This document shows, piece by piece, positions 12,542 through 63,912 of a stretch of DNA of 64,000 nt. The notes under the pieces were generated by a model. That model saw only the letters and a program-made list of their open reading frames with translations, made no database searches and was not told the DNA's origin. How positions within the stretch are numbered: position 1 is the first letter of the stretch; every line of letters begins with the position of its first letter. Source of the stretch: a virus (taxonomy: Duplodnaviria; Caudoviricetes); IMG/VR virus record IMGVR_UViG_3300037601_000024, positions 1-64,000 of that record. One strand, given 5' to 3'. The position numbers and the translations under genes were made by a program.

Positions 12542-14875
12542 ATGACTAAGAGACAATTCTCAGCCGAACAGGCAACCCTCGCAATCGAGAAAACCGCAAA
12601 GCTGTTGGCGCAAGAGAGTGTCAGTGTAACCACACGTGGCGCTCGCGCTTTCATCGAATGGCACCCATCCGGTGACATCAAGCGGATCAACCTACCAATG
12701 GTGCCTCGCGACGCTGACCAAGAGTTTTTGGACGCGCTGCAAGGCTTTTTGGATCATGAGGTAGGTCACGCTCTCAACACCGAGCCGCTGAAGGGTCGAG
12801 CGCTCGAAGATTCCCACATTAAACGCCTTGGTGTGCATCCCCAGGTTATTCGTTCGATGACGAATATCATCGAAGATGTGCGCATTGAAGACGCTATGGA
12901 AGAGCAATTCCGTGGCTGTAAGCGCAACCTCGAAGCGGTTCGCAAGTTCTTCGTCGAGCGTATGCGGCGGCCGACGCTGGATAGCATCGACCCCTCCCCT
13001 GCCGGCGACGATGAGCGTCGCGCATATATTCTCCCAATCTTCTTCCGAGCACGCGGCGGTCAGACCGCTTGTGAGCACTTCATGGATGACATGGAATTGT
13101 GGAAGTACGTCGAACCCTACGACAAATTATTTCCAGACCTGTCGGAGCGTCTTGCCGCTCTAGCGAGCACCGAAGACGCCGCAAACTTGGCGGCAGAGAT
13201 CGTCGAGCGGACGTGCGAAACCACCCCGCCGAAAGACGATGAAGCTGAGCCTGAAGATCAGCAGCAAGACGGCGAAAGCGGCGATGACCAGACTGGTGAC
13301 GAACAGGGCGAAGAACGTGAGTCCGACCAGTCGGGGGACCAAGAAACAGAGGCAGATAACAATGATGATGAAGGGGGACAGGATGACGATCCCGAGCAGA
13401 ACGAGGATGAAGGCTCATCCGATGGGGACCAGCCTGGCGATGACGACGAGGATGATGAGGGACAGAGCGGTGACGACGGTGACACTGACGACTCCGAAGC
13501 CGAACCTGAACCATCTGACGACGGCGGAGATGACGGAGATAGTGGCGAAGATCAGGGGGATGATGAAGAGCAAGACGACGCCAATTCTGACGCTTCCGAC
13601 GGAGACGATGAAGATGCCAGCGACAACTCTGAATCTGGCGACTCAGACGATGACGCCGGGGAGAATTCCGACAGCGCGAACGATGATAATGAGAGCGAGA
13701 CAGATGGGGAAGACGACGGCTCTGAGGCAGATGATAATGACAGCGAGACGGATGGATCAGAAGACACGTCTGACGGCGCCGAAAACGCTGAGAACCAAGA
13801 CCTAGACGGCGCCGACGATACTGAAGTCGATAGCAGCGAGGATCAGTCTGGCGATATCGAAGAAGTCGAGAAAATGATTATCGGCGTCGACTATGACAAG
13901 ATCGAAGACTTCGACAACTGCGCCGCAGATGAGTTTGAGCGCCTGGTTGGCGATATGGACACCAGCGACCCGTATCACATCTTCTCTCGGGACCATGACT
14001 TAATCGAGCCTGCACAAGCTTACGAGGACGCTCCCGTAAAGTATTGCGAAGACCGTGTTGAGAAAACGACTGGCGTTCTTCGAAAGGAATTACAGCGCCT
14101 AATTGCTGCACGGTCCCTCTCTCATATGGTGCCAGGCAAGCGATCGGGCCGCATTCATCCTGCGTCCCTGCACCGCCTTCGTGTCGGGGACGACCGTGTC
14201 TTTGCCAGGAAACATGAGGTTGTGACCAAAGACACGGCCGTGTCGCTCGTGGTCGATTGCTCCGGTTCGATGCACGGCGCCAAAATCCAAGTCGCGATGG
14301 AGTCCGCATGGGCGTTCTCGGACACGCTCAGCCGATTGAACGTCGATAACGAAGTTCTCGGCTTCACGACTAACCACCCGTATTATGGAAACAGTAGAGC
14401 TAAATCTTACGACCCCGTTGAGATCGAGCGCTATTGCCGGACGCTTGGAGTTTCATCGCATCGCGTCCGACAGGTTCCGCTCTACGTTCCCATCTTCAAA
14501 GCATTCGACGAGAACTTCGGGATCGAGCAGAAGCGCCGCATGGCCTCCTATCCTGAAAAAGGTCTGCAAGGCGCGAACGTGGACGGCGAGTCCGTTCGGA
14601 TTGCTGCGCACCGTTTGATGCAGCGCCGTGCGCAACGTCGCGTGATGATCGTCTTCTCTGACGGTATGCCAGCCAGCGATGTCGCCGGCGAATTGCTCGA
14701 TGCCGATCTCAGAAAGACGGTCAAAGAGCTGGAAGCCGCGAAGATCGAAACGATCGGCATCGGTATCCAGACCAAATCGGTGAAGCAATACTACCCGAAG
14801 AGCTTTGTGATCAAGAACTCCGAAGAGCTTGCGGGGACCACTCTTCGCGAGCTGAAGGCAATTCTCACAAACTAA
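12542..14875 (+). CDS. CobT-like VWA protein with N-terminal HExxH domain and long acidic linker
   Basis: HEVGH and IIEDVRIE at the N-terminus, about 215 aa D/E-rich linker, MIDAS DCSGSM and SDG in the C-terminal VWA. Confidence 0.8.
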   Translation: MTKRQFSAEQATLAIEKTAKLLAQESVSVTTRGARAFIEWHPSGDIKRINLPMVPRDADQEFLDALQGFLDHEVGHALNTEPLKGRALEDSHIKRLGVHPQVIRSMTNIIEDVRIEDAMEEQFRGCKRNLEAVRKFFVERMRRPTLDSIDPSPAGDDERRAYILPIFFRARGGQTACEHFMDDMELWKYVEPYDKLFPDLSERLAALASTEDAANLAAEIVERTCETTPPKDDEAEPEDQQQDGESGDDQTGDEQGEERESDQSGDQETEADNNDDEGGQDDDPEQNEDEGSSDGDQPGDDDEDDEGQSGDDGDTDDSEAEPEPSDDGGDDGDSGEDQGDDEEQDDANSDASDGDDEDASDNSESGDSDDDAGENSDSANDDNESETDGEDDGSEADDNDSETDGSEDTSDGAENAENQDLDGADDTEVDSSEDQSGDIEEVEKMIIGVDYDKIEDFDNCAADEFERLVGDMDTSDPYHIFSRDHDLIEPAQAYEDAPVKYCEDRVEKTTGVLRKELQRLIAARSLSHMVPGKRSGRIHPASLHRLRVGDDRVFARKHEVVTKDTAVSLVVDCSGSMHGAKIQVAMESAWAFSDTLSRLNVDNEVLGFTTNHPYYGNSRAKSYDPVEIERYCRTLGVSSHRVRQVPLYVPIFKAFDENFGIEQKRRMASYPEKGLQGANVDGESVRIAAHRLMQRRAQRRVMIVFSDGMPASDVAGELLDADLRKTVKELEAAKIETIGIGIQTKSVKQYYPKSFVIKNSEELAGTTLRELKAILTN

Positions 14876-14970
14876 TTGGCAATCATCTTTGACTATTTAC
14901 AAGTCATCCGCATATGGTATGAATTGTCAGTCAGCAATGACAATACACGGAACAAACGGAGGCATAAGCA

Positions 14971-16143
14971 ATGAGTTCTAACATCACAACACCGGATCAA
15001 GGCGTGCTGGTTCACGGTTTCGACGTCTACGTCCATTCTGTGCCGCGATATCTCGAAGACACCGACGTCACATTGGCGGAATATCAGGAAGCATACGGTT
15101 CCGACACGCCTTTGTTTTCGGAGCGCTTCAAAGCGGCGAAGGCCAAGCGCGAGGATGATCTGAAATCAGATATGACGGCAAAGGTTCACACCATGCCAGG
15201 CGCAGCTTCCAAGCAACCATTCGCCAAGCTGTTTGATCTTGGAAATGCCAAAGCAGCGAAGAACGCTCGCGGCAAAGACATCATGTGTTCAGTCGTCGCA
15301 CCGCCGACCAATTACGAAGGGTGGGTTCCAGATGTGGATCCCAATTACGTCTATCATATCGACAACCTGAAAGCGGTTATGATGGCCGCTGAGCTTGGTA
15401 TGACCATGCTGCTCTGGGGAATGCACGGTACGGGTAAAACAACGCTCGTCGAGCAATTCTGCGCACGCACAGGGCGTCCGTGGATTCGGGTGCAGCACAC
15501 CGTCTCCACAGAAGAGTCGCACATTCTGGGACAGTACGTGGTCAAAGACGGCGCAACGGTCTTTGAGCTTGGTCCCCTTGCGATCGCGATGCGTGATGGT
15601 CTGGTCTACATGGCCGACGAATATGACTTTGCGCTACCGTCTGTGACATCGGTCTATCAGCCGGTTCTCGAAGGTAAGCCGCTGGTGATCAAAGAAGCTC
15701 CGCCAGAGCTGCGGATCATCAAACCACACCCGAACTTCCGGTTCTTCGCAACCGGTAACACGAACGGCGCCGGAGATGAGACTGGTCTTTATTCCGGTAC
15801 TCAGATCATGAACGCCGCGAACTATTCGCGCTTCGGTATCACCATCGAAGTGACGTACATGCCGGCCGCTCAAGAGGTCGCAGTGGTCGCGGGTCAGGCG
15901 AAGATCCACAAGGATGACGCCGACCGCCTGGTGAAAGTCGCTAATGAAGTCCGTCGAGGCTTTGAGCGCGGTGACATGTCCGCGACGATCTCGCCTCGTG
16001 AACTCATCAATGCAGGGATGCTTGCACGTGTCATGGGCGTCGAACCTGACCTCACTAAGGGTTTGGAGCTTGCGTACTGCAACCGCCTGGACTCGACCGA
16101 CAAGAAGGCGGTGCTCGACTTCGCGCAACGCCACTTCGGTTAA
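14971..16143 (+). CDS. CobS/MoxR-type AAA+ ATPase
   Basis: GMHGTGKT, YMADEYD, HPNFRFFATGNTNG, SRF, SPRELI; adjacent to the VWA partner. Confidence 0.85.
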   Translation: MSSNITTPDQGVLVHGFDVYVHSVPRYLEDTDVTLAEYQEAYGSDTPLFSERFKAAKAKREDDLKSDMTAKVHTMPGAASKQPFAKLFDLGNAKAAKNARGKDIMCSVVAPPTNYEGWVPDVDPNYVYHIDNLKAVMMAAELGMTMLLWGMHGTGKTTLVEQFCARTGRPWIRVQHTVSTEESHILGQYVVKDGATVFELGPLAIAMRDGLVYMADEYDFALPSVTSVYQPVLEGKPLVIKEAPPELRIIKPHPNFRFFATGNTNGAGDETGLYSGTQIMNAANYSRFGITIEVTYMPAAQEVAVVAGQAKIHKDDADRLVKVANEVRRGFERGDMSATISPRELINAGMLARVMGVEPDLTKGLELAYCNRLDSTDKKAVLDFAQRHFG

Positions 16144-61085: not shown

Positions 61086-61472
61086 TTATTCGGTCGTTTC
61101 GCCAGAAGCTTCGACCGCCTTTTGAGCCGCCTCTGCTTCTGCCTTGCAGTTTGTGTCCACTGCACGCTCTAGTGCTCTTACCTGTCCCTTAGCAAGAGCG
61201 AGTTCGCCTTCAACATCGGCGCCGAACACCGATCCCGCAGGAACGAGAAGAAGGAAGACGCCGACCGTATCGGCCGTTGCTGCGTTGTTTTGTTTCTTAC
61301 GAAGCGTTTCTTCTTCCGCGCGCTTCAGGTCCAGCTCCGCCCGAGACTCTTCGCAGGTCAGATCATAATACTCTGACGCCGACACTGAGACTGGAGCGAC
61401 ACCAGACGCTCTTGTGGCGCAAGCAGACAATAATCCTGCTGCTACCAGTGAAATAAATAAGGCATTTTTCAT
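61086..61472 (-). CDS. Lipoprotein
   Basis: Lipobox LLSAC, later hydrophobic hairpin VGVFLLLVPAGSVFG. Confidence 0.7.
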   Translation of the reverse strand: MKNALFISLVAAGLLSACATRASGVAPVSVSASEYYDLTCEESRAELDLKRAEEETLRKKQNNAATADTVGVFLLLVPAGSVFGADVEGELALAKGQVRALERAVDTNCKAEAEAAQKAVEASGETTE

Positions 61473-61630
61473 TACGCACCCCGTTGGTTAATAGGAGCGC
61501 TTAGTAAATCGAATCCGAGTCCTTCCGCAACCGAAAAGTTAAGGCAATTCAAGATTGTATCTTTGTTTACACTCGACTTAAATCGAAGGCGGTGGGTACG
61601 ATCTTGAGTTTCCACAACCCACCGCCTTCT

Positions 61631-61705
61631 AAATCCCTATGCTCTGCCTGACTGAGCTACCCAGCGCGTAGCCGGGGTGAGATTCGAACTCACGACCTAG
61701 GGTTT
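61631..61705 (-). ncRNA. Circularly permuted tRNA-like RNA (YrlA/Y-RNA-like topology)
   Basis: Minus strand 5'-AAA CCCUA GGUC GUGAG-UUCGAAU-CUCAC CCCGGC-UACGC-GCUGGG UA GCUC-AGUCAGGCA-GAGC A UAGGG AUUU-3': T arm, loop-closed acceptor, D arm, closed by an anticodon-type stem. Confidence 0.75.
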
Positions 61706-63912
61706 CCTCTTTGATGGAGATGCCGTTAGCACCTCCCACCAACTGTCTGCATCTTCGAAATCGTCGCGCTCCACCGCCTCGATGTAAAACGTCGCCAAGT
61801 CTACCCGCGCTTTATGTACCTCACGCGGGTCTTCTGGGTAAGACTGCATCGCCATGATTTGTTCTTTGGTGTAGCCGCCGTCAGTCATCGCGCTCCCCTG
61901 TCGGGTAGAGGCATCCAGTGGGTGCGGCTTTCAGGGCGGCTTGCATGGATCGGATCATCCGGTCTTTGTGGTCATTCGGCAGCTCATCCCACGAGCGCTC
62001 AAGGTCTTCCACGCCGGACATGTATTCCTGATAGTGAGCTTTCGCCATTGCTTCCATCAAAACCTCACGCAATGCCGCATCGTTATCCTGTGCGGAGTAG
62101 TTGACAACATCAAAAGCTGACCCCTCCAACCAATCGCGCACCATAGAAACAACGCTCTCAACGGTCTCTTCAGTCGACAGATCGTTTTCGGTACACCGTT
62201 GCGCCCGCTTGATGATCAAGTCCGGCAGCTTTCTTGCGGCTCGATCATTGCTCTTCGACAACCTTGTTAAAACCGCCTGGCGATCCTCGTCAGATAGCTT
62301 CATCGGATCATTTCGCATTACCCCACTCCATACACAACTGCTTCAGCGATGCGCTCCCAGTGTCTTTTGATATTCTCAGTATGCTTATCCCAGAGCGCAC
62401 GAGCTGATTCTTCAGATAAAGCTGGCTGCGCCGCCCTGAACGCTCGAAACCCTGCACCGAATGTCCCCAGAATTTTCAGAGACTGAAGCTCATAATTGTA
62501 ATCCGACAGCTCGTCATACGCTTCCAATAGGCGTTGAAGTTCGTCGACCTGAATTTTGACGCTTTGCTCGCCGGCCTTCTTCAGGTCTTCAACAAGCTGG
62601 CGTGTGGAGTGAACGATATCGGTCATACCGGAAGTCCTCTCCAGCCGTCTTCCCACCAATAGCCGACATAATCGCGCTGATATTTGATGTGGTCGAACCA
62701 CTCATTGATCTCGCCGATCGTATCCTCCTCGATTGTGAATGGGATTACCCATTGGACGTAGAGAATGTGCTGCTTCATGCGCTTGTCTCCCGCTTCAAAA
62801 GCATCAATCGGTTCCTGAGAGCGTGGATCGCTTGCAATCTGGTCGCGTGACTATTGATCTGGTCATCGAGAACACCACTCAGAGCGACGTTTAGCTCGTC
62901 TTGCTCCTGCTGATACCTGTCGACCTGTTCTTCGCGCTCACGGAGCTCCTGTGTCGTTTTCTCAGCGCGTTGTTTCCACGTGCGCTTGTCTTCCATCGCC
63001 CCGTTGTAAGCATCTGCATCCGGAACTGCGACAGTATCGGACCTGACCCACGATTGAATGCGCGGACCATCTAGGTGAGCTTTCGTTTGAAAGCGCGCGA
63101 TGTGATACGACCGGCGCCATATCCGGTATCCGTCGATCATCTTGGTTGGGATCCAGGCGAACTTCTTCCGCCACGGTCCAACACGTTCCATGAACATCAT
63201 CATTCCTGAAGTCCCTCGTTCTCGATTTCGGTAATGAACTCTTCGACGCGTAGGTGAAGTTCGACCCACTTCTTTCCGAAGCCGTCTTTGGTCTCGCAAG
63301 TGGGATCAACCATACGCCGGTGTCCTTCGAGATCAGTCAGTGCTCTCAGGTTTCCTTTCGCCTGGTTCCAGACGATCGCCTTGTTCATGGATAGCGTTTC
63401 GTAGCTCAAAAGCTGCTCCCTAGCGCTTGGACGAATTTGTAGAGAAAGAACGGAATGCCGATCACAACGATGGCCAGACCGATCAGAAGGTTCCAGCATA
63501 CTCTAGGCATCGGCGTGCTTCCCGAGCAGGTAGACCGTGTTTCGGGTGTGAGCGAGCTTCATGTCACCCACGTCCTCGATCTTTGTGACCGTACTGGTGA
63601 AGACCGGCTCTGAGTCTTTGAAACGACCCTTCCGGTCAAAAAAGATCCAGCCTTGCAGACGATCGCCGATTTGCTCCCAGTTGTGGAGCATGGCGTGTGC
63701 GATCATGATATCGTTCGGGACGTTGTTCATTCCGCCACCTTCTCGAACCACTCCTGGCGCGACGCCAAAGACAGCTCTCCCCAAGATGGGAAACGGTTGC
63801 AGTGAATACCGGAGCTATCGACATGTTTGATGTACGCCGCTTTGGCTTTCTGCTCGCGCTCGGAGACCTCTCGAAGCGGTGTCAGCTCCCGCTGTGCTTC
63901 GTCACGAACCAT
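61697..63912 (-). other. Minus-strand cluster of small hypothetical CDS (61697-61888, 61881-62318, 62318-62626, 62775-63202, ~63200-63389, ~63503-63730, 63727-63912)
   Basis: ATGA-type coupling on the minus strand; ORF track. Confidence 0.55.

What the first reader, a model, noticed from the sequence alone, without database searches (positions are those of the whole stretch)
61585..61705. Circularly permuted tRNA mimic with sealed acceptor stem (YrlA-like Y RNA or permuted tRNA)
Seen on the minus strand, 5' to 3': AAA-CCCUA, variable GGUC, T arm GUGAG/UUCGAAU/CUCAC, acceptor CCCGGC-UACGC-GCUGGG closed by a 5-nt loop (no free CCA), U8-A9, D arm GCUC/AGUCAGGCA/GAGC with G18G19, A26, then UAGGG pairing back with CCCUA. 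Every canonical tRNA tertiary residue is present, but the halves are swapped and the break falls in the anticodon loop, so tRNA scanners would likely miss it. A perfect 13-bp hairpin (61585-61597/61617-61629) follows at once, and the 5' end overlaps the stop codon of ORF 61697-61888. Established: bacterial YrlA Y RNAs have this T-acceptor-D permuted topology, usually beside Ro60/Rsr and RNA-repair genes, and are reported in some phages. Permuted tRNA genes are known in some algae and archaea. No Rsr/TROVE gene or clear Ro-binding helix is visible in this window. Inference: an un-chargeable tRNA-elbow decoy, for example against anticodon nucleases or tRNA-sensing defence, or a tether for tRNA-binding enzymes.
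Basis: partly seen in the sequence, partly recalled or inferred. Interest (0 to 1): 0.85.

Follow-up and report, generated by a model that had tools for sequence, protein, structure and literature searches.

The report
Ro60-less inside-out tRNA mimic in prophage
A prophage, probably of the marine bacterium Hyphomonas, encodes a small RNA shaped like a tRNA turned inside out that cannot be charged. Evolution has kept its fold, it resembles the known YrlA Y RNAs, but it lacks their Ro60 partner and binding motif, so it probably works through some other tRNA-binding protein.

Summary
On the minus strand, 61635-61702 is a 68-nt tRNA body in permuted order. It runs: anticodon-stem strand, GGUC, T arm, a 6-bp acceptor stem closed by UACGC, U8-A9, D arm, A26, then the other anticodon-stem strand. 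A 13-bp hairpin follows.

ARAGORN and Rfam at gathering thresholds find nothing. Rfam YrlA matches below threshold (40.8 against 69 bits).

I found four relatives: three Hyphomonas-type prophage contigs and one high-GC contig just behind a tRNA array. They keep the fold: 98% of cells paired, 8 pairs with compensatory changes, and an invariant A-C-G in the closing loop. It is therefore a selected structured RNA, not a decayed tandem tRNA.

It has the architecture of the YrlA tRNA-like domain but fails the tests for a Ro60 Y RNA. There is no GNCGAA motif, and no TROVE or DUF2828 gene in the 72-kb record or in the relatives' loci. It has no conserved anticodon loop, so it is not a permuted tRNA gene.

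In three relatives it shares the early leftward operon with an Rnl2-like RNA ligase, and in two with a phosphoesterase. This phage has neither.

Best reading (function inferred): a Ro60-independent tRNA-body decoy or tether. This scan has reported many permuted tRNA mimics on other DNA; this subtype is a new variant.

The parts
61635..61702 (-). Core of the permuted tRNA-like RNA (68 nt): anticodon-stem strand CCCUA, variable GGUC, T arm, closed acceptor, U8-A9, D arm, A26, anticodon-stem strand UAGGG
   Evidence: Sequence. Fold. Rfam YrlA 40.8 bits. Covariation in 5 members. The re-permuted form is called a tRNA by ARAGORN.
61677..61693 (-). T arm: 5-bp stem GUGAG/CUCAC with loop UUCGAAU
   Evidence: Three of the five stem pairs are changed on both sides in L148, and all stay paired.
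61660..61676 (-). Closed acceptor: 6 bp CCCGGC/GCUGGG with 5-nt loop UACGC. In tRNA numbering this reads Y72, A73, C, G, Y1.
   Evidence: Four of the six pairs have compensatory changes. The loop is YACGY in all 5 members, although three of them were found with searches that did not specify it.
61641..61657 (-). D arm: GCUC/GAGC with loop AGUCAGGCA (A14, G15, G18G19, A21)
   Evidence: Invariant stem; part of it was fixed by the search pattern for L147 and L148.
61585..61629 (-). 13-bp hairpin with a 19-nt loop, starting 5 nt after the core. No U tract follows it. Probably a 3' clamp or terminator-like end of the RNA.
   Evidence: -26.3 kcal/mol, z -5.0. Homologous hairpins with compensatory changes occur in L147 and L161. 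In L124 it is replaced by two hairpins, the second of which is an intrinsic terminator.
61697..61888 (-). ORF of 63 aa. Its stop codon lies inside the first bases of the element. It is the last ORF before the RNA.
   Evidence: A 92% identical homologue lies just before the element in L124. The upstream ORFs in L161 and L163 are unrelated.
61086..61472 (-). Downstream lipoprotein-like gene on the same strand. It is not part of the conserved module and is absent from L124.
   Evidence: Its only relative, L123, has no element upstream.

Best explanation
The stretch encodes a non-chargeable mimic of the tRNA body (elbow plus acceptor-T minihelix). It has the same inside-out architecture as the tRNA-like domain of YrlA Y RNAs.

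It is transcribed as the tail of an early leftward prophage operon and ends in a very stable hairpin that should protect its 3' end. It has no anticodon loop and no free CCA, so it cannot decode or be charged. What it offers is the tRNA shape.

I think it acts in trans and without Ro60. It would occupy or recruit a protein that recognises tRNA by its elbow and acceptor end, probably in the conflict over tRNA damage and repair. The conserved A-C-G loop over a Y.Y 1-72 mismatch would be part of the recognition surface.

Shown: the fold, its conservation by compensatory change, the lack of a Ro60 gene and motif, and the lack of an anticodon loop.

Inferred: transcription as an operon tail, action in trans, the kind of partner, and any link to RNA repair.
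For: Structure and selection:
- Cloverleaf in the minimum-free-energy fold.
- Across 5 members, 98% of cells are paired, 8 pairs have changes on both sides, and 0 of 500 shuffles reach this.
- Window against L148: 7 changed pairs, of which 6 are compensated, 1 is G-U type and 0 are broken. Only 4 of 29 unpaired positions differ, so the tertiary-contact bases are more conserved than the stems.
- Window against its close relative L124: 2 compensated pairs and one G.U to G-C change.
- Re-permuted halves are called tRNA by ARAGORN.

YrlA-like:
- YrlA is the only Rfam match, at 31-44 bits in all five members.
- The architecture equals that of the solved YrlA domain.

Ro60-independent:
- No TROVE, DUF2828, RtcB or RNA_ligase in the 72-kb record.
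- No TROVE among the called genes of the relatives' loci L124, L161 and L163.
- The GNCGAAN0-1G motif defined by Chen et al. 2014 (PMC4201824) is absent from the aligned 5' region.

Operon tail:
- No sigma-70-like promoter on the minus strand nearby.
- The stop codon of the upstream ORF lies inside the element in the window, L161 and L163.
- A strong hairpin follows in all four phage members.

tRNA and RNA-repair context:
- An Rnl2-like RNA ligase (phrog_548 E 1e-41; PF09414 29.8 bits) lies on the same strand in L124, L161 and L163.
- A metallophosphoesterase (phrog_547 E 6e-49) lies next to the element in L161 and L163.
- L148 sits 130 nt behind a tRNA array.
Against: - There is no transcript, binding or modification datum.
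- This phage itself has no RNA ligase or phosphoesterase in the record. More distant relatives carry RtcB or the ligase without the element. The repair link may therefore be shared ancestry of one phage group rather than function.
- Four of the five members are one phage lineage, so only L148 is independent. L147 and L148 were found with a pattern that fixed CCCNA, GAGCANNGGG and parts of the T and D loops.
- The record is only 66% complete and the host genome was not searchable, so a Ro60 elsewhere in the phage or in the host is not excluded.
- Halves that derive from one tRNA pair automatically, so pairing alone does not prove selection. The within-lineage compensatory changes and the conserved linker are what argue for it.
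Confidence: 0.5

Rival explanations
1. It is a cis-acting end-piece of the operon mRNA. The tRNA-shaped fold plus hairpin stops 3'-5' exonucleases. Alternatively it is cut by tRNA-processing enzymes (RNase P or RNase Z type) to define and stabilise the 3' end of the upstream message, as the mascRNA fold does for MALAT1. On this reading the released piece has no job of its own.
For: - It always sits directly behind an ORF, with the stop codon inside or 10 nt before it.
- No promoter of its own was found.
- A strong hairpin follows directly.
- In L148 it closes a tRNA array whose transcript is processed by the same enzymes.
- M. smegmatis YrlA is cut by RNase P in its acceptor loop (PMC4201824).
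Against: - A plain hairpin would do for stability, yet all tertiary-contact bases of tRNA are conserved more strongly than the stems.
- The acceptor has 6 pairs plus a mismatch, with G at -1. The 6-bp S. Typhimurium YrlA is not cut by RNase P.
- Genes on the same strand continue downstream in the window, L161 and L163, so it is not the true operon end.
Confidence: 0.2
2. It is a true Y RNA that uses the host's Ro60 (Rsr), or a Ro60 gene in the missing third of the phage genome, through a divergent binding site. It would tether that protein to an exoribonuclease such as PNPase.
For: - Best and only Rfam match is YrlA.
- In L124 the 5' and 3' flanks form a long bulged basal stem like a Y RNA stem.
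- Phage Y-like RNAs that work with host PNPase are known (PMC12135203).
- UUCGAAG lies 45 nt upstream in the window and L124, and CGAG-containing stretches lie upstream in L147 and L148.
- An Rv2179c-like 3'-5' exoribonuclease gene lies in the same operon.
- The record is 66% complete.
Against: - The GNCGAAN0-1G motif is missing at the expected place.
- The long basal stem is not conserved. The window, L147 and L161 have an independent hairpin instead.
- No TROVE within 10 kb, whereas published YrlAs lie within 4 kb on the same strand.
- In IMG/VR, the closed-acceptor mimics that do sit with TROVE have a different build, with an extra anticodon-like arm and variable tetraloops.
Confidence: 0.15
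3. It is a scar with no function: the inner halves of two tandem copies of one tRNA gene, or an attachment-site remnant left after deletions or recombination.
For: - Halves of the same tRNA pair by construction.
- Both edges of the element coincide with mosaic junctions between relatives.
- Dimeric tRNAs are the known false positive of the YrlA model. Below its cut-off the model matches in 6 of 14 control genomes. Of 129 pattern hits in IMG/VR, 93 were tandem tRNAs.
Against: - Compensatory substitutions within the close lineage.
- The linker is identical in length and is YACGY in all members, with a non-tRNA-like Y.Y 1-72 mismatch.
- The element is kept at 87-94% identity while both flanks are swapped for unrelated genes.
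- L148, in a high-GC, unrelated context, has different stems, all of them paired.
Confidence: 0.05
4. It is a permuted tRNA gene. The transcript would be circularised at the anticodon stem, for example by the phage RNA ligase, and opened at the acceptor loop to give a chargeable tRNA.
For: - The topology equals that of the permuted pre-tRNAs of red algae (discussed).
- The loop reads A73-C-G, so cleavage before position 1 would leave a near-CCA end.
- Three relatives carry an RNA ligase in the same operon.
Against: - The flanks next to the anticodon stem differ among members and hold no U33/R37-type 7-nt loop.
- No bulge-helix-bulge endonuclease is known in bacteria.
- This phage has no RNA ligase in the record.
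- The 1-72 mismatch and the 6-bp stem are poor for RNase P.
Confidence: 0.03

Closest known systems
YrlA (Y RNA-like A), Rfam RF02553; Chen et al. 2014 (PMC4201824); structure in bioRxiv 10.1101/312249
   Same: Same order of parts (variable region, T arm, closed acceptor stem-loop, D arm). Anticodon stem formed by the 5' and 3' strands. 6-bp acceptor, as in S. Typhimurium YrlA. All tRNA tertiary-contact bases present. No CCA and no anticodon loop. Known to occur in phages.
   Different: Scores 40.8 bits against a gathering score of 69. No GNCGAAN0-1G Ro60 motif. No rsr/TROVE gene within 10 kb or anywhere in the 72-kb record. No conserved long basal stem. The closing loop is a conserved YACGY, not a variable loop. 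It sits as the tail of an ORF, with a separate 3' hairpin.
Phage closed-acceptor tRNA mimics next to Ro60 (TROVE) or DUF2828 genes, seen here in IMG/VR and reported earlier by this scan
   Same: A closed acceptor between a T arm and a D arm, carried by phages, sometimes behind tRNA arrays.
   Different: The TROVE-linked ones have an extra anticodon-like arm (GUUACUUCG...) and variable tetraloops. The DUF2828-linked ones carry an ACAGCAA 'handle' inside an outer stem. This element has neither, and its record has neither gene.
Circularly permuted tRNA genes of Cyanidioschyzon merolae and other algae (Soma et al. 2007, as cited in 10.1101/312249)
   Same: The 3' half lies before the 5' half, the acceptor is closed in the primary transcript, and the anticodon stem is made from the transcript ends.
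   Different: No conserved anticodon loop or bulge-helix-bulge splice motif, a bacterial and phage setting, and no sign of maturation to a chargeable tRNA.
tRNA-like 3'-end modules of long transcripts (mascRNA of MALAT1) and viral tRNA-like structures or tmRNA (own knowledge; mentioned)
   Same: A tRNA-shaped fold at the 3' side of a longer transcript that is read by tRNA enzymes.
   Different: Those have open acceptor ends that are cut by RNase P or are CCA-tailed and charged. Here the acceptor is sealed.
Phage tRNA repair (T4 Pnkp plus RNA ligase against the PrrC anticodon nuclease) and the Salmonella rsr-yrlBA-rtcBA RNA-repair operon (PMC7790460; own knowledge for T4)
   Same: In relatives, a tRNA-related RNA element lies in one operon with an RNA ligase and an end-healing phosphoesterase.
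   Different: The ligase and phosphoesterase are absent from this phage's record, no Ro60 is present, and no functional link has been shown.

Membership tests
YrlA / bacterial Y RNA (RF02553) | tRNA-like domain: variable region, T arm, closed acceptor stem-loop and D arm in this order, with the anticodon stem formed by the flanks | tested here: met
   compared with the solved YrlA domain.
YrlA / bacterial Y RNA (RF02553) | Reaches the Rfam gathering score (69 bits) | tested here: not met
   40.8 bits in the window and 31-44 bits in the four relatives. The score comes from the tRNA-like part only.
YrlA / bacterial Y RNA (RF02553) | GNCGAAN0-1G motif near the 5' end (presumed Ro60 contact; Chen et al. 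2014) | tested here: not met
   The aligned region reads CAUCAAAG. The nearest look-alike, UUCGAAG, lies 45 nt upstream inside the ORF. Motif definition.
YrlA / bacterial Y RNA (RF02553) | Encoded within about 4 kb of an rsr/TROVE gene, on the same strand | tested here: not met
   No PF05731 match in the 72,411-bp record. None among the called genes of L124, L161 and L163. The record is only 66% complete and the host was not searchable.
YrlA / bacterial Y RNA (RF02553) | Bound by Ro60, and modified by TruB and DusA | not testable with these tools
   Needs immunoprecipitation and modification mapping.
Permuted tRNA gene | Transcript ends rebuild a canonical 7-nt anticodon loop (U33, R37) and a splice motif | tested here: not met
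   The flanks next to the stem differ in all five members and show no such loop.
Permuted tRNA gene | The two halves make a standard cloverleaf when re-permuted | tested here: met
   ARAGORN calls all five re-permuted constructs tRNA and none of the native ones. The 'Met' label comes from my arbitrary loop.
DUF2828-linked 'handle' RNAs with a tRNA mimic | ACAGCAA handle inside an outer stem, with a neighbouring PF11443 gene | tested here: not met
   No ACAGCAA next to the element. No PF11443 in the record. Both features are present in L024, L042, L063 and phage J2-1.
Tandem (dimeric) tRNA genes | A complete tRNA on each side of the T-arm/D-arm junction | tested here: not met
   ARAGORN finds no tRNA in the window. 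No anticodon arm lies on either side. By contrast, 93 of 129 pattern hits elsewhere were true tandems.

The most novel reading that the evidence does not exclude
This would be a Ro60-independent class of phage tRNA-body mimics. Its sealed acceptor end (A-C-G loop over a Y.Y mismatch) and elbow would be read by a specific partner. That partner would be either a host tRNA-directed nuclease or sensor, which the RNA blocks, or the phage's own Rnl2-type ligase and phosphoesterase repair pair, which it guides or regulates. A virus would then be using the bare tRNA shape as a weapon or tool in the tRNA damage-repair conflict.
Probability: 0.3. Interest if true: 0.75.

Novelty: new variant of a known kind. 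Interest (0 to 1): 0.5.

Why it matters
YrlA-type tRNA mimics have been defined by their Ro60 partner, and what the tRNA-like half does is still unknown. Here is a version stripped to that half. It is kept by selection in prophages that have no Ro60 gene nearby. In some relatives it sits next to RNA-repair enzymes, and in one case it follows a tRNA array.

If it acts alone, it would show that the tRNA shape itself is the functional unit. It would also give a small, tractable RNA of about 70 nt, with a conserved 3-nt loop to mutate, for finding the long-sought protein that reads the tRNA-like module.

If it turns out to be only an mRNA end-piece, it is a minor curiosity.

Tried and rejected
- Megablast of 3 kb around the element against GenBank phages: no match.
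- Relatives of the 145-aa upstream ORF in IMG/VR: none.
- The only relative of the downstream lipoprotein gene has no element upstream.
- A close-relative DNA pattern found 0 matches in genome contigs and metagenome contigs. The relaxed pattern found 0 in genome contigs and 2 in metagenomes.
- The YACGY-loop pattern found 0 matches in IMG/VR. A looser ACG pattern gave only other subtypes.
- blastn of the element against GenBank phages gave only ordinary tRNAs, some of them unannotated, plus one DUF2828-type mimic.
- A covariance-model search of five distant DnaE-type phages (RHEph10, X66, B1VFA, ANB28, hairong) gave only tandem tRNAs.
- More distant phage relatives and short contigs had no element.
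- Idea that it derives from initiator tRNA (three G-C pairs in the anticodon stem, 1-72 mismatch, A73): overall similarity to E. coli tRNA-fMet is lower than to ordinary elongator tRNAs, and the GGG/CCC was partly fixed by my search pattern, so I dropped it.
- A pseudoknot between the acceptor loop and the 3' hairpin loop is not conserved in L147 (read).
- Host identification and a search for host Ro60 were not possible.
- Three reviews or papers (Sim & Wolin 2018; Sim et al. 2020; Burroughs & Aravind 2016) are not held.
- The weak Rfam hits mir-337, TMV_UPD-PK3 and Mu-gpT-DE (15-17 bits) are chance.

Full report
**What is there.** The window is the first 64 kb of a 72,411-bp IMG/VR virus record rated 66% complete. 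It belongs to a large temperate phage with DnaB, CobT, DNA polymerase III alpha, ribonucleotide reductase and DNA ligase genes. An integrase gene lies at 70918-72156. Its distant cultured relatives are Rhizobium phage RHEph10-type phages, with 41% identity in DnaE.

On the minus strand, 61702-61635 reads CCCUA, GGUC, a T arm, a 6-bp acceptor stem closed by UACGC, UA, a D arm, A, UAGGG. The stop codon of a 63-aa ORF lies inside the first bases. A perfect 13-bp hairpin follows 5 nt later.

**Scanners.** ARAGORN finds no tRNA in the window, and Rfam at gathering thresholds finds nothing. With permissive thresholds the only real match is YrlA (RF02553) over 61615-61718 at 40.8 bits, against a gathering score of 69. 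That model also gives matches below its cut-off in 6 of 14 control genomes. Its authors warn that tandem tRNAs are its false positives. The score alone therefore proves little.

**Is it more than chance or a scar?** A generic T-loop/D-arm pattern in IMG/VR returned 129 sites. Of these, 93 were ordinary tandem tRNAs and about 20 were closed-acceptor mimics, so the class exists in phages.

For this element in particular I found relatives in three ways:
- The 63-aa ORF has one homologue (92% identity) on a 21-kb Logan contig, L124. The element follows it there.
- A pattern that left the T stem, acceptor stem and linker free found two metagenome contigs, L147 and L148.
- Homologues of the convergent 246-aa gene led to a Hyphomonas sp. 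MAG prophage, L161. They also led to L163, the longer version of L147.

In a structural alignment of the five members, 98% of stem cells pair and 8 of 20 pairs carry changes on both sides. No shuffle out of 500 reaches this, and slid registers give 27-50% pairing.

Window against L148 has 7 changed pairs: 6 compensated, 1 G-U type, none broken. Only 4 of 29 unpaired positions differ. Within the close lineage, window against L124 shows G-C to C-G and U-A to C-G swaps and a G.U to G-C change.

The linker between the halves is YACGY in all five. In tRNA numbering, positions 1 and 72 are always a pyrimidine-pyrimidine mismatch followed by A73. Real tandem tRNAs do not look like this.

The element is kept at 87-94% identity while the genes on both sides are exchanged. 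The homology block between L124 and the window ends exactly at the end of the core, and the upstream ORFs of the window, L161 and L163 are unrelated.

When the halves are swapped back and given an arbitrary loop and CCA, ARAGORN calls a tRNA in all five cases.

I conclude that this is a structured RNA under selection. One caveat: four members are one phage lineage, and the search pattern fixed part of helices 1 and 4 for L147 and L148.

**What kind of RNA?** The architecture equals the crystallised tRNA-like domain of S. Typhimurium YrlA: a 6-bp closed acceptor, T and D stem-loops, an anticodon stem made from 5' and 3' strands, and no anticodon loop. The features that define a Ro60 Y RNA are missing:
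- The GNCGAAN0-1G motif is not at the aligned 5' position.
- No TROVE gene is in the record or among the called genes of L124, L161 and L163.
- The long basal stem seen in L124 is not conserved. The window, L147 and L161 instead carry an independent hairpin.

For comparison, 9 of 16 IMG/VR records with closed-acceptor mimics do carry TROVE. Those RNAs have an extra anticodon-like arm and variable tetraloops. Another group carries an ACAGCAA handle and sits with DUF2828 genes. This record has no DUF2828 gene. The element here belongs to neither group.

It is not a permuted tRNA gene in the functional sense either. The sequences that would form the anticodon loop are not conserved.

**Setting.** No sigma-70-like promoter lies upstream on the minus strand. 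The phage's repeated operator occurs 22 times, but only up to position 53.1 kb. The element directly follows an ORF in every phage member, and a hairpin of about -26 kcal/mol follows it. In L124 the second hairpin is an intrinsic terminator. The simplest reading is that the RNA is the tail of the early leftward operon, possibly released by processing.

In L124, L161 and L163 the same operon holds an RNA ligase. It matches phrog_548 at E 1e-41 and PF09414 at 29.8 bits, and T4 Rnl2 is the nearest solved structure, though weakly. In L161 and L163 a metallophosphoesterase (phrog_547) lies next to the element.

More distant relatives carry RtcB in this operon but no element. The window's phage has no ligase or phosphoesterase in the record, although it has an Rv2179c-like 3'-5' exoribonuclease gene in the operon. 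L148 lies 130 nt behind a tRNA array that contains an HNH gene.

The surroundings therefore point to tRNA and RNA-repair biology, but the link is loose and may be inherited synteny.

**Mechanism.** I commit to a Ro60-independent tRNA-body mimic that acts in trans, as a decoy or tether for a protein that reads the tRNA elbow and acceptor end (0.5). The conserved A-C-G loop would be part of the recognition surface.

| Rival | Probability |
|---|---|
| Cis-acting mRNA end-piece | 0.2 |
| Y RNA using a host or unseen Ro60 | 0.15 |
| Functionless scar | 0.05 |
| Permuted tRNA gene | 0.03 |

The fold and its selection I hold at about 0.9. All function is inferred.

**Novelty.** Phage and bacterial YrlA RNAs are published (PMC4201824; PMC12135203). 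This scan has already logged many permuted tRNA mimics with Ro60-like, DUF2828 or other partners on other DNA. What is new here is a small subtype with no Ro60 motif or gene, no extra arm, a conserved YACGY closing loop and a clamp hairpin. It sits in Hyphomonas-type prophages and in one unrelated high-GC contig. I rate it a new variant of a known kind, of moderate interest.

Noticed in passing
L024, L042, L063, L117, L136 (IMG/VR) and L149:1460-1600 (Pseudoalteromonas phage J2-1, MF988720): A second kind of closed-acceptor tRNA mimic carries an ACAGCAA motif just inside an outer stem. Four of these records hold a DUF2828 (PF11443) gene. In J2-1 that gene lies about 200 nt downstream and the RNA has its own promoter. 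Earlier notes of this scan describe the same pairing.
   Followed up: partly
L100:11340-11480; L135 and L139 (IMG/VR): Odd multi-elbow RNAs. L100 has D arm, T arm, closed stem, D arm, T arm inside one outer acceptor-like stem, then a terminator. L135 and L139 chain two closed-acceptor modules head to tail.
   Followed up: no
L168:10404-11636 and 14126-15226; L169:10123-11364: More distant relatives of this phage group carry RtcB, and in L168 also an Rnl2-like RNA ligase, in the early leftward operon next to the integrase. RNA-repair genes are therefore a recurrent cargo of this operon even without the tRNA mimic.
   Followed up: partly
G000 68644-69333 (-), beyond the window end (L122:8644-9333): Rv2179c-like 3'-5' exoribonuclease gene (PF16473, 101 bits) in the same leftward operon as the element.
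   Followed up: no
L148:1380-2864 (-): A high-GC contig with a tRNA array (Arg, Arg, an HNH endonuclease ORF, Pro, Ser, Ser, Glu), then the mimic, then an SPFH/Band 7 gene. It is the only member of the family outside the Hyphomonas-type phages.
   Followed up: partly
L173:2353-2588 (-): An IMG/VR phage with an 11-gene tRNA array followed by two closed-acceptor mimics of another subtype. A mimic at the end of a tRNA array therefore recurs.
   Followed up: no
window 4601-53111 (+): The operator-like palindrome AGTCA-N4-TGACT occurs 22 times with at most 1 mismatch (1.9 expected). All copies are on the + strand and none lies beyond 53.1 kb, so the region holding the mimic is outside that regulon.
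   Followed up: partly
L150:1440-1760 (Pseudomonas phage vB_PpS_SYP, OQ183418) and L151:1465-1545 (Vibrio phage vB_VpaP-MS02, OR102882): Ordinary tRNA genes that are not annotated in the GenBank records.
   Followed up: no
P0003 / L161 (GCA_024743155.1, Hyphomonas sp. MAG): The closest named relative of the convergent 246-aa gene (89% identity to the L124 copy) lies in a Hyphomonas MAG contig. The host of this phage group is therefore probably Hyphomonas.
   Followed up: partly
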